A stretch of DNA of 32,000 bases from positions 1-32,000 of the forward strand of contig JBHLRO010000030.1 of assembly GCA_048882505.1 (NCBI GenBank), read 5' to 3'. Within the stretch, counting starts at the first letter, position 1. Each line of letters opens with the position of its first letter. The position numbers and the translations under genes are program-made. This stretch comes from Candidatus Thorarchaeota archaeon (GTDB lineage: Archaea; Asgardarchaeota; Heimdallarchaeia; Hodarchaeales; Hodarchaeaceae). Below the pieces are notes generated by a model that made no database searches, was not told where the DNA came from, and saw only the letters and a list, made by a program, of their open reading frames with translations. This document shows, in pieces, positions 19,071 through 19,225 of the stretch.

Positions 19071-19225
19071 CCGGAAGTTAAGCCGAGTTTCGTTCTGATC
19101 TGTACTGTTATGCGCGAGCTTACGGGAACATCAGAAAACGGGTATTGCCCGTTCATAGGGCTCGAGTAACACCCGGTCTCATTCCGAAAGATATGAAGGA
19201 ATTTCTTCATTCCGGGAACCCGGAA
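19071..19225 (+). rRNA. rrf: 5S rRNA gene, circularly permuted (3' half 19077-19143, ATT linker, 5' half 19147-19188, intron, 19219-19225)
   Basis: Conserved 5S blocks CCGGAAGTTAAGCC, loop E TGTA/GAA, GCGA tetraloop, CATAG and AACACCCGGTCTCATTCCGAA are all present but in swapped order. Helices: I GCCCGTT/AACGGGT, II GGGCTCG/CGAGTTTC, III CCGG/CCGG, V TTCTGAT/ATCAGAA. Confidence 0.9.
19189..19218 (+). other. Putative 30-nt archaeal-type (BHB/BHL) intron in 5S loop C
   Basis: Its removal restores the consensus TCTCATTCCGAA|CCCGGAA. Central helix TCCG/CGGG, AAA bulge, and intron stem GA..ATGAAG/CTTCAT..TC. Confidence 0.7.

What the first reader, a model, noticed from the sequence alone, without database searches (positions are those of the whole stretch)
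19071..19225. Circularly permuted 5S rRNA gene, invisible to ORF-based or linear rRNA annotation
Seen: the 3' half of a 5S rRNA (GTTAAGCCGAGTTTC..GTAC..GCGA..GGGAAC..AACGGGT, 19077-19143) precedes the 5' half (GCCCGTTCATAG..AACACCCGGTCTCATTCCGAA, 19147-19188). The native 5' and 3' ends are covalently linked by ATT, which caps helix I as a hairpin. All five helices can form, so the sequence looks constrained rather than decayed. It has its own BRE/TATA box and a leader/trailer stem. Established: permuted genes repaired by splicing are known for archaeal tRNA (Thermofilum) and SRP RNA (Thermoproteus). Inference: this is a functional permuted 5S gene. I am not aware of one having been described, but could not search.
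Basis: partly seen in the sequence, partly recalled or inferred. Interest (0 to 1): 0.95.

Follow-up and report, generated by a model that had tools for sequence, protein, structure and literature searches.

The report
Back-to-front 5S rRNA gene, Asgard archaeon
This Asgard archaeon's only 5S ribosomal RNA gene is written with its back half first, between signals for the tRNA-splicing enzymes that should cut and rejoin it, which explains why 5S genes have seemed to be missing from these close relatives of eukaryotes.

Summary
Bases 19077-19143 are the 3' part of a 5S rRNA and 19147-19188 the 5' part. A 3-nt cap (AUU) joins the native ends. The leader and trailer pair into a 3-4-3 bulge-helix-bulge (BHB) motif. 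Its predicted cuts (19076|19077 and 19225|19226) rebuild the canonical ...CCCGGAA|GUUAAG... sequence.

A 30-nt insert (19189-19218) is absent from 16 aligned same-genus loci. It has its own BHB, so it reads as an intron.

The genome has no collinear 5S gene. The same permuted layout, with heavy covariation, occurs in 76 of 83 genomes of the class and in many other Asgard families. These include the two closed Heimdallarchaeum genomes in which the authors could not find a 5S gene. Other Asgard families have only the normal gene.

The genome encodes two splicing-endonuclease paralogs and RtcB. Independent assemblies confirm the layout.

No RNA data could be obtained. Cutting, ligation and the final form (closed ring, re-opened or nicked) are therefore inferred.

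I found no paper describing this. This scan has already noted permuted Asgard 5S genes on other DNA (220 findings in at least 129 genomes). The mechanism is that of permuted tRNA and SRP RNA genes, so I class it as a new variant of a known kind.

The parts
18984..18999 (+). Putative archaeal promoter: purine-rich BRE-like GCGAAAA, then the TATA-like TTTTTAAAG
   Evidence: A TTTAAAG/TATAAAG box followed by (A/G)CTCTTGAA lies at the same distance upstream in 12 of the 13 other genus members compared; in the 13th the contig ends before that point. Promoter function is inferred.
19056..19070 (+). Leader strand of the processing stem (outer helix of the terminal BHB)
   Evidence: Cofolding leader and trailer gives 19056-19060/19237-19241 and 19062-19070/19227-19236 as the minimum-energy structure. 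Five of nine pairs covary within the genus and all nine across the phylum.
19071..19077 (+). Terminal BHB, leader side: central-helix strand CCGG (19071-19074) and 3-nt bulge AAG (19075-19077). Predicted cut between 19076 and 19077.
   Evidence: Sequence and cofold MFE. The leader copy varies among relatives (CCGG, CCGA, CUGG) while the trailer copy does not.
19077..19143 (+). 5S rRNA 3' part: 3' strands of helices III (outer) and II, the whole helix IV / loop E / helix V arm, and the 3' strand of helix I
   Evidence: RF00001 positions 52-109, 18.9 bits; covariation in helices II, IV and I.
19144..19146 (+). AUU cap that joins the native 3' and 5' ends and closes helix I (AACGGGU/GCCCGUU)
   Evidence: Sequence and fold. 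Caps vary in relatives: AUU, GUU, UUU, AAUUA in the genus, mostly UNCG-type tetraloops elsewhere.
19147..19188 (+). 5S rRNA 5' part: 5' strands of helices I, II and III, loop A, and most of loop C
   Evidence: RF00001 positions 6-44, 16.3 bits.
19189..19218 (+). 30-nt BHB-type intron in loop C. Central helix 19183-19186/19213-19216, bulges AAA 19187-19189 and AAC 19217-19219, inner stem 19190-19199/19204-19212.
   Evidence: Absent from all 16 aligned same-genus loci. The BHB model is within 1.6 kcal/mol of the MFE of the segment. Removing it restores the invariant CAUUCCGAA|CCCGGAA. Strain variants change only the intron's bulge and loop bases 19192 and 19203.
19219..19226 (+). Last 5S exon piece CCCGGAA (19219-19225, 3' strand of helix III). 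Bases 19220-19223 also form the trailer strand of the terminal BHB central helix. The bulge is AAA (19224-19226), with the predicted cut between 19225 and 19226.
   Evidence: CCCGGAA is invariant in all 13 aligned genus relatives. It is 7 nt long, which fills RF00001 positions 45-51 exactly. Cofold MFE.
19227..19241 (+). Trailer strand of the processing stem
19279..19283 (+). Oligo-T run, putative archaeal terminator
   Evidence: T-runs lie 25-40 nt after the trailer in G000 and in the relatives compared. Function is inferred.

Best explanation
This is the organism's functional, and apparently only, 5S rRNA gene, encoded as a circular permutation.

It is transcribed from its own promoter as a precursor of roughly 250 nt (inferred). 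The leader and trailer pair into a long stem that ends in a bulge-helix-bulge motif. A second, relaxed BHB encloses a 30-nt intron in loop C.

The archaeal splicing endonuclease cuts in all four bulges. RtcB then joins 19188 to 19219 and 19225 to 19077. This restores loop C and helix III and yields a 119-nt RNA with the normal 5S fold, in which helix I is closed by AUU.

Shown here: the permuted order, the BHB geometry, the exact restoration of the canonical sequence, conservation with covariation, the absence of a normal 5S gene, and the presence of the enzymes. Inferred: transcription, cleavage, ligation and the final form.

I think the ring most likely stays closed (about 0.4 absolute probability). 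It could instead be re-opened at the helix I cap.
For: - Halves in swapped order, tiling RF00001 positions 6-44, 45-51 and 52-109 with no gap or overlap.
- The product folds to the 5S shape and aligns with normal Asgard 5S genes.
- No collinear 5S gene in the own genome, which is 94.5% complete. A complete 23S on contig C57 has 1.5 kb of downstream sequence, and the whole-genome scan found no 5S there.
- No archaeal collinear 5S gene in 30 relatives, four of them single-contig assemblies. The only two strong hits sit beside bacterial 23S on small contigs.
- The independent model R1 gives 106.5 bits here, as a single copy.
- Within the genus, 95.8% of cells are paired and 11 pairs change on both sides, against 0-4 in the slid controls. 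Across the phylum, 41 of 44 pairs change on both sides, including all 13 pairs of the BHB stem.
- The terminal BHB is the cofold minimum-energy structure, and the intron BHB is within 1.6 kcal/mol of the MFE.
- The 30-nt insert is missing in relatives exactly at the predicted splice sites.
- A related strain (X4) has 3 differences in the 177-nt unit against 29 in the 289 nt of flanks. The three differences fall on an unpaired base, turn a G-U pair into G-C, or lie in the intron loop.
- The genome has two EndA paralogs and RtcB.
- Precedent: the permuted SRP RNA of Thermoproteus is cut at a leader/trailer BHB and exists as a circle (PMC4731332). An E. coli strain lives on 5S rRNA whose native ends are joined by a 4-nt connector (PMC7283268).
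Against: - There is no RNA evidence at all, so transcription, cleavage and ligation are untested here.
- In about half of the genus, the fourth pair of the central BHB helix is an A-C mismatch.
- The intron's 3' splice site lies in a 3 x 6 nt internal loop, not a clean bulge.
- In the full precursor, the CCGG at 19220-19223 can pair with three different partners. The whole-precursor MFE does not show the trailer CCGG (19220-19223) in either BHB: it pairs the leader CCGG with helix III and the trailer CCGG in a local hairpin.
- Helix I is only 7 bp.
- Nothing here decides whether the helix I cap is kept.
Confidence: 0.8

Rival explanations
1. The cutting and ligation happen as above, but the ring is only an intermediate. 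A nuclease opens it at the helix I cap and gives an ordinary linear 5S rRNA, as permuted tRNAs are finished by RNase P and tRNase Z.
For: Permuted tRNA genes work this way (PMC3978253, PMC3218864). Circular 16S and 23S precursors are classically described as re-linearised (PMC12918454). Cap length and sequence vary a good deal, and one relative (G197) has a cap of about 37 nt.
Against: The cap is only 3 nt here, and in most other lineages it is a UNCG-type tetraloop sitting directly on helix I. That looks like a structural closure and not a spacer. No archaeal nuclease is known to me that would recognise it. The permuted SRP RNA stays circular, and circular 23S rRNA inside ribosomes has been reported.
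Confidence: 0.3
2. The endonuclease cuts the terminal BHB but the ends are not joined. The working 5S is then a linear, permuted molecule with a nick between helix III and loop B.
For: All helices can still form with the nick, because the 3'-terminal CCCGG...CCGG hairpin holds loop C and G19077-C19173 still pairs. Mitochondrial 5S rRNAs that stay permuted in the final product exist (PMC4267664).
Against: In this genome the intron must be ligated out, or the 7-nt piece 19219-19225 would be lost, so a ligase acts on this transcript. RtcB is present, and in known cases it joins BHB-cut ends that are held together.
Confidence: 0.1
3. The 30-nt insert is not spliced out but kept as an expansion of loop C.
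For: No RNA data. Other Asgard copies carry inserts of 35-36 nt in the helix I cap or helix V loop that may be expansions.
Against: The insert lies inside the most conserved loop of 5S. Its borders fit a 4-bp helix with 3-nt bulges that restore the invariant sequence exactly. Strain variation spares its stem.
Confidence: 0.08
4. The locus is a decayed relic or an assembly artefact, and the real 5S gene is simply unassembled.
For: The genome is a draft of 83 contigs, and rRNA genes are often missing from such drafts.
Against: Four other assemblies agree. Single-contig relatives, including two complete Heimdallarchaeum chromosomes, have the permuted gene. In the four single-contig relatives scanned with RF00001 no normal 5S was found. 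Covariation and low divergence show selection.
Confidence: 0.02

Closest known systems
Permuted SRP RNA gene of Thermoproteus tenax and T. uzoniensis (Plagens et al. 2015, PMC4731332)
   Same: A universal structured RNA whose gene seemed to be missing. The order is permuted, with the new ends next to a functional loop. The leader and trailer form a BHB that the tRNA splicing endonuclease cuts. The mature RNA is a ligated circle. A TATA box and a short leader are present.
   Different: It is a different RNA (SRP, not ribosomal) and is known from two species of one genus, with experimental proof. Here the RNA is the 5S rRNA, the layout spans many Asgard families, there is an extra intron, and nothing has been shown at the RNA level.
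Circularly permuted tRNA genes (Cyanidioschyzon merolae; Thermofilum pendens; PMC3978253, PMC3218864)
   Same: The 3' half is encoded before the 5' half, a BHB sits at the termini, and the gene is expressed through a circular intermediate.
   Different: tRNA rings are opened again by RNase P and tRNase Z at a spacer between the native ends. Here the native ends are joined by only 3 nt and no opening enzyme is evident.
Circular and circularly permuted archaeal 23S rRNA (Pyrococcus furiosus, PMC7758197; circular 23S in ribosomes, PMC12918454)
   Same: rRNA processed through BHB cleavage and ligation, with circular or permuted final forms inside ribosomes.
   Different: Those genes are collinear and the permutation arises after transcription. 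The same papers state that 5S rRNA is not processed through circularisation. Here the gene itself is permuted.
'Permuted' mitochondrial 5S rRNA of brown algae and other stramenopiles (Valach et al. 2014, PMC4267664)
   Same: A 5S rRNA whose helix I is a closed hairpin and which standard models miss.
   Different: There the ends move to the three-way junction and stay there, without splicing. The halves are not exchanged and there is no BHB. Here the break lies between helix III and loop B and is predicted to be resealed.
Engineered cp5S rRNA in E. coli (Huang et al. 2020, PMC7283268)
   Same: The native 5S ends are joined by a short connector and the molecule is opened in loop C or loop D. The ribosomes are active and the cells viable.
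   Different: It is artificial and fused into 23S rRNA. It is not a natural free molecule.

Membership tests
5S rRNA (Rfam RF00001) | Scores above the family's gathering threshold as a collinear sequence | tested here: not met
   20.3 bits against a cut-off of 38, as expected for a permuted gene.
5S rRNA (Rfam RF00001) | Conserved 5S sequence blocks and arms: loop A, helix II-III with loop C, helix IV / loop E / helix V | tested here: met
   The halves match model positions 6-44 and 52-109, and the 7-nt piece fills 45-51. The product aligns end to end with 11 normal Asgard 5S genes.
5S rRNA (Rfam RF00001) | Three-way junction with helices I-V supported by covariation | tested here: met
   The MFE of the in-silico product gives the three-armed 5S shape. 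Compensatory changes occur in helices I, II and IV within the genus and in all helices across the phylum (that alignment was fitted to the model).
5S rRNA (Rfam RF00001) | Present in ribosomes and bound by uL18 and uL5 | not testable with these tools
   No RNA or structural data for this lineage.
BHB-processed circularly permuted RNA genes (tRNA, SRP RNA) | The 3' part is encoded upstream of the 5' part, with the native ends joined | tested here: met
BHB-processed circularly permuted RNA genes (tRNA, SRP RNA) | Leader and trailer form a 4-bp helix flanked by 3-nt bulges, next to an outer stem | tested here: met
   CCGG/CCGG with bulges AAG and AAA and an outer stem of 14 bp; this is the cofold MFE. 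The stem covaries. In about half of the genus the fourth central pair is A-C.
BHB-processed circularly permuted RNA genes (tRNA, SRP RNA) | Cutting after the second bulge base and joining the ends restores the canonical RNA sequence | tested here: met
   19225|19077 gives CCCGGAA|GUUAAG, the normal 5S sequence. The same holds for other lineages with different central helices, such as CGUG/CACG. The cut rule comes from established knowledge of archaeal BHB cleavage.
BHB-processed circularly permuted RNA genes (tRNA, SRP RNA) | Splicing endonuclease and RtcB ligase are encoded | tested here: met
   Two EndA paralogs of 182 and 213 aa and one RtcB.
BHB-processed circularly permuted RNA genes (tRNA, SRP RNA) | Junction-spanning reads or a circular RNA are observed | not testable with these tools
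   No RNA run was listed for this sequence.
Archaeal BHB intron | An insert absent from orthologs, bounded by a 4-bp helix with 3-nt bulges, whose removal restores the conserved sequence | tested here: met
   The 30 nt are absent in 16 genus loci. The motif is UCCG/CGGG with bulges AAA and AAC. It is a relaxed form, because the 3' bulge faces 6 unpaired loop C bases.
Stramenopile mitochondrial permuted 5S (mtPerm-5S) | Helix I replaced by a terminal hairpin, with the ends at the three-way junction, kept in the final RNA, and no exchange of halves | tested here: not met
   Here the halves are exchanged and the break lies at model positions 51/52, in the helix III region.

The most novel reading that the evidence does not exclude
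In this archaeon, and in the many Asgard lineages that share the layout, the 5S rRNA inside the ribosome is a covalently closed ring of about 120 nt. It is made by the tRNA-splicing machinery and never has free ends. This would make Asgard archaea the first organisms known to use a circular 5S rRNA. The permuted/normal split would then be a discrete character for Asgard phylogeny close to the origin of eukaryotes.
Probability: 0.4. Interest if true: 0.92.

Novelty: new variant of a known kind. Interest (0 to 1): 0.87.

Why it matters
5S rRNA is universal and its gene is normally trivial to find. Yet the authors of the two circularised Heimdallarchaeum genomes reported that no 5S gene could be predicted (PMC8813620). 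The permuted gene found here occurs twice in each of those chromosomes, which resolves that gap.

It also shows that standard annotation misses an essential gene across much of the Asgard phylum. In my sample of 151 genomes, the permuted and normal states did not co-occur in any family apart from weak cross-hits to the same gene.

The finding extends BHB-dependent "repair" of permuted genes from tRNA and SRP RNA to a ribosomal RNA. It predicts a circular 5S rRNA that RNase R treatment, junction RT-PCR or cryo-EM could test directly. It also gives a simple yes/no character that may help to order Asgard lineages.

This particular copy adds a second BHB intron 7 nt from the permutation junction. 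One 119-nt RNA therefore needs four cuts and two ligations.

Tried and rejected
- **RNA evidence.** Two look-ups for sequencing runs listed no RNA holder, so expression and junction reads could not be examined.
- **Rfam on the joined product.** I used the two halves separately, an unconstrained fold and an alignment to normal 5S genes.
- **First alignment with G000 (A1).** It misplaced the trailer because of the intron, so I rebuilt it without G000 (A2).
- **Whole-precursor MFE.** It pairs the leader CCGG with the helix III strand and folds 19211-19224 as a small hairpin, so it does not display the BHBs. Segment and two-strand folds do.
- **Canonical 5S hits of about 80 bits in two relatives (G005, G020).** These looked like a normal gene, but they sit beside bacterial 23S on 2-kb contigs and are bin contamination.
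- **The weak RF00001 hit in G060.** It overlaps a permuted copy and is not a normal gene.
- **Degenerate pattern scan of 185,579 species genomes.** It listed 80 loci. The 14 from bacteria or non-Asgard-labelled archaea did not match the permuted model and fit the roughly 25 chance hits expected. The pattern finds only about two thirds of known copies, so this does not show absence outside Asgard.
- **Small ORFs over the locus** (18850-19023, 19052-19210, 19245-19481). I took these as chance ORFs in an intergenic spacer.
- **Bacterial promoter/terminator scanner.** Not used, because it does not model archaeal promoters.

Full report
**What is in the sequence**

The intergenic spacer lies between a metallo-beta-lactamase/DRMBL-type gene (17882-18844, minus strand) and an MptE-like kinase gene (19399-20223, plus strand). 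On the plus strand it holds the following, in order:
- 19077-19143 reads as the back part of a 5S rRNA: GUUAAGCC, the 3' strand of helix II, the GUAC...GCGA...GGGAAC loop E / helix V arm, and AACGGGU.
- 19144-19146 is AUU.
- 19147-19188 reads as the front part: GCCCGUU, CAUAG, the 5' strands of helices II and III, and loop C up to CAUUCCGAA.

Rfam finds nothing above threshold in the window except a tRNA-Val at 15395-15468. Read as a linear gene the locus scores 20.3 bits against a cut-off of 38. Given the two pieces separately, RF00001 matches 19077-19136 to model positions 52-109 (18.9 bits) and 19150-19188 to positions 6-44 (16.3 bits). The seven model positions in between (45-51) are supplied by the 7-nt CCCGGAA at 19219-19225.

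**The termini**

Upstream, GAGAUCCUG (19062-19070) pairs with CAGGAUC-CUC (19227-19236), and 19056-19060 pairs with 19237-19241. Next to this stem, CCGG (19071-19074) pairs with CCGG (19220-19223). These four pairs are flanked by two 3-nt bulges, AAG (19075-19077) and AAA (19224-19226).

When leader and trailer are folded together as two strands, this is exactly the minimum-energy structure. It is the 3-4-3 bulge-helix-bulge (BHB) geometry that the archaeal splicing endonuclease recognises.

From established knowledge of BHB cleavage, the cut falls after the second bulge base. The released RNA would then run from G19077 to A19225. Joining its ends gives ...CCCGGAA|GUUAAGCC..., which is the normal 5S sequence at the helix III / loop B boundary.

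**The 30-nt insert**

Sixteen other loci of the same genus read ...CAUUCCGAACCCGGAAAC... without interruption. This genome has 30 extra bases (19189-19218) between GAA and CCC.

The borders of the insert form a second BHB:
- central helix UCCG (19183-19186) with CGGG (19213-19216);
- bulges AAA (19187-19189) and AAC (19217-19219);
- a 9-bp inner hairpin.

This model is within 1.6 kcal/mol of the MFE of the segment. The same cut rule gives 19188|19219 and restores the invariant sequence. The motif is relaxed, because the 3' bulge faces six unpaired loop C bases.

The joined product (116 nt without the cap, 119 nt as a ring) folds without constraints into the three-armed 5S shape. It aligns collinearly with eleven normal Asgard 5S genes at 53-64% identity.

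**Is it real DNA?**

Contigs from four other public runs of four studies lie on 18900-19400 without joints or indels, and they include the insert. X1 and X2 may be the source samples; X4 and X6 come from other studies.

One run (X4, a 12-kb contig of a related strain) differs at 32 of 466 bases. Only three of these fall in the 177-nt unit 19061-19237:
- one in an unpaired base (19088);
- one turning a G-U pair into G-C (19090);
- one in the intron's loop (19203).

A second strain (X6) changes the intron's bulged U (19192) and the same loop base. The unit is therefore under purifying selection and the intron's stem is preserved.

**Is there another 5S gene?**

There is none in this genome (94.5% complete). 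A complete archaeal 23S on contig C57 has 1.5 kb of downstream sequence, and the whole-genome scan found no 5S there.

Of 30 relatives, only two gave a strong RF00001 hit. Both hits sit next to a bacterial 23S on contigs of about 2 kb, so they are contamination. The four single-contig relatives among them have none.

**Conservation**

I aligned 13 genus relatives (A2) and named the structure by hand: outer stem, central BHB helix, and helices I, II, III (outer), IV and V.
- 95.8% of cells pair, against 29-51% when the partners are slid.
- Eleven pairs change on both sides, against 0-4 when slid: five in the leader/trailer stem, three in helix I, two in helix IV and one in helix II.
- The trailer's CCCGGAA is invariant, while the leader copy varies (CCGG, CCGA, CUGG). 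This fits the trailer copy being the one kept in the mature RNA.

A covariance model built from these 13 sequences (R1; G000 left out) gave these results:
- It scores this locus at 106.5 bits, E 3.5e-29, as the only hit in the genome.
- It finds matches, nearly all full-length, in 76 of 83 genomes of the class, including 14 of 14 high-quality ones.
- In a sample of 151 genomes of the phylum, the strong matches come from 19 families in all, 5 in this class and 14 outside it. Two further families give only weak cross-hits (see below).
- The very divergent family f14 is permuted too.

On the same sample RF00001 finds normal genes above threshold only in seven families (f11 25/26, f17 17/19, f20 3/5, f15, f27, f28, f7); the f7 hit overlaps a permuted copy. 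In this sample the two states do not co-occur within a family, apart from weak cross-hits to the same gene.

Across 36 diverse copies, 41 of 44 pairs show changes on both sides, including all nine outer-stem pairs and all four central BHB pairs. That alignment was fitted to the model, which favours the structure. Lineages with a different central helix, such as CGUG/CACG, shift the bulges by one base and still give ...CGGA|AGUUAAG....

**Who has it**

Earlier notes of this scan place the genome in the Hodarchaeales-type Asgard archaea. I ran a pattern specific to the permuted order over one genome per prokaryotic species, then checked the hits with R1. The confirmed records are labelled Heimdallarchaeota, Hodarchaeota, Odinarchaeota, Baldrarchaeota, Asgardarchaeum abyssi and Promethearchaeota. 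They include two copies each in the complete chromosomes of Ca. Heimdallarchaeum aukensis (CP084166) and Ca. H. endolithica (CP084167).

The paper describing those two genomes states that 5S rRNA genes "could not be predicted" (PMC8813620).

The 14 hits from bacteria or non-Asgard-labelled archaea fail the model and fit the number expected by chance.

**Transcription unit and machinery**

A TTTAAAG/TATAAAG box followed by (A/G)CTCTTGAA lies at a fixed distance upstream in 12 of the 13 other genus members compared. The thirteenth contig ends before that point. Here the box is at 18991-18999, preceded by GCGAAAA. Oligo-T runs follow the trailer, here at 19279-19283.

The genome encodes two divergent splicing-endonuclease paralogs (182 and 213 aa, both with the N-terminal and catalytic domains) and one RtcB. 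Two paralogs suggest the heterotetrameric type, which the literature describes as having relaxed BHB recognition. That assignment is an inference.

**Mechanism and its open end**

The best reading is that the precursor is cut at both BHBs and ligated twice. The intron shows that a ligase must act on this transcript: without ligation, the 7-nt piece that forms the 3' strand of helix III would be lost.

What happens at the helix I cap cannot be decided here. Outside this genus most caps are UNCG-type tetraloops (UUCG, UGCG, UACG, CUCG) sitting directly on helix I. That is what one expects of a permanent structural closure and not of a processing spacer.

Three lines of published work bear on this:
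- The permuted SRP RNA stays circular.
- Circular 23S rRNA inside ribosomes has been reported.
- E. coli tolerates 5S rRNA with its native ends joined.

I therefore lean towards a closed ring, at about 0.4 absolute probability. The alternatives are re-opening at the cap and a cut-but-unligated nicked form.

**Comparison with what is known**

The mechanism matches the permuted SRP RNA of Thermoproteus and permuted tRNA genes. The molecule and the taxonomic breadth are new to the literature that I could search: six searches for permuted or circular 5S rRNA and for 5S rRNA in Asgard archaea found nothing on archaeal 5S. A recent paper states that 5S rRNA, unlike 16S and 23S, is not processed through circularisation. 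The "permuted" mitochondrial 5S of brown algae is a different thing.

This scan has already noted permuted 5S genes in other Asgard genomes: 220 findings in at least 129 genomes. One of those notes says that every Asgard lineage sampled has the layout. My sample contradicts that, because six families carry only the normal gene.

Noticed in passing
L025:1440-1739 (G020:C510): Two permuted 5S copies lie head to tail, 14 nt apart. Their leader/trailer stems differ but their bodies are nearly identical. RF00001 reads a weak collinear 5S (31 bits) across their junction. This fits an origin of the permutation by tandem duplication and loss of the outer halves.
   Followed up: partly
L042:1154-1307 (G008:C16:11207-11360): A degenerate second copy (37 bits) lies about 200 nt upstream of the intact permuted gene in a same-genus genome. 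Its 3' half is recognisable and the rest is decayed. It is probably a pseudogene left by a duplication.
   Followed up: no
L209 (G197:C7) and L210 (G168:C251): In the divergent family f14, permuted copies carry extra sequence: one has a helix I cap of about 37 nt and another has an insert of about 36 nt in the helix V loop. I did not test whether these are introns or expansions.
   Followed up: no
L122, L129, L142, L148 (archaeon Dive96_bin2.176 = G060): Identical permuted 5S copies sit at the ends of four contigs, with at least two different upstream and two different downstream flanks. The gene is therefore multi-copy there and breaks the assembly.
   Followed up: partly
L002 (G020:C798), L003 (G005:C310): Small contigs carrying a bacterial 23S-5S operon end are binned into two Asgard MAGs. 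They would wrongly make those genomes look as if they had a normal 5S gene.
   Followed up: yes
L173, L179, L146 (record titles): Records labelled Hermodarchaeota (DZ1M.253), Bathyarchaeia (SMAG_U14241) and Thorarchaeota (QM1B.68) carry permuted 5S genes that score like this genus or like Heimdall-group families. The deposited labels may be wrong.
   Followed up: no
genus relatives, flanks of the unit: Beyond the BHB stem, most relatives have a further leader/trailer pairing some 10-15 nt out, with compensatory changes (for example GCGCC with GGCGC, ACGCC with GGCGU, UUACGC with GCGUAA). The processing stem is therefore longer than the modelled part.
   Followed up: partly
G000 contigs C38, C45, C52: Besides one complete archaeal 23S on C57, there are several partial LSU matches on other short contigs. 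The one on C38 is split into three adjacent pieces. This could be a second, interrupted or fragmented rRNA operon, or contamination.
   Followed up: no
window 15395-15468: An intron-less tRNA-Val (CAC) with 65% G+C in a 41% G+C genome. It is ordinary.
   Followed up: yes
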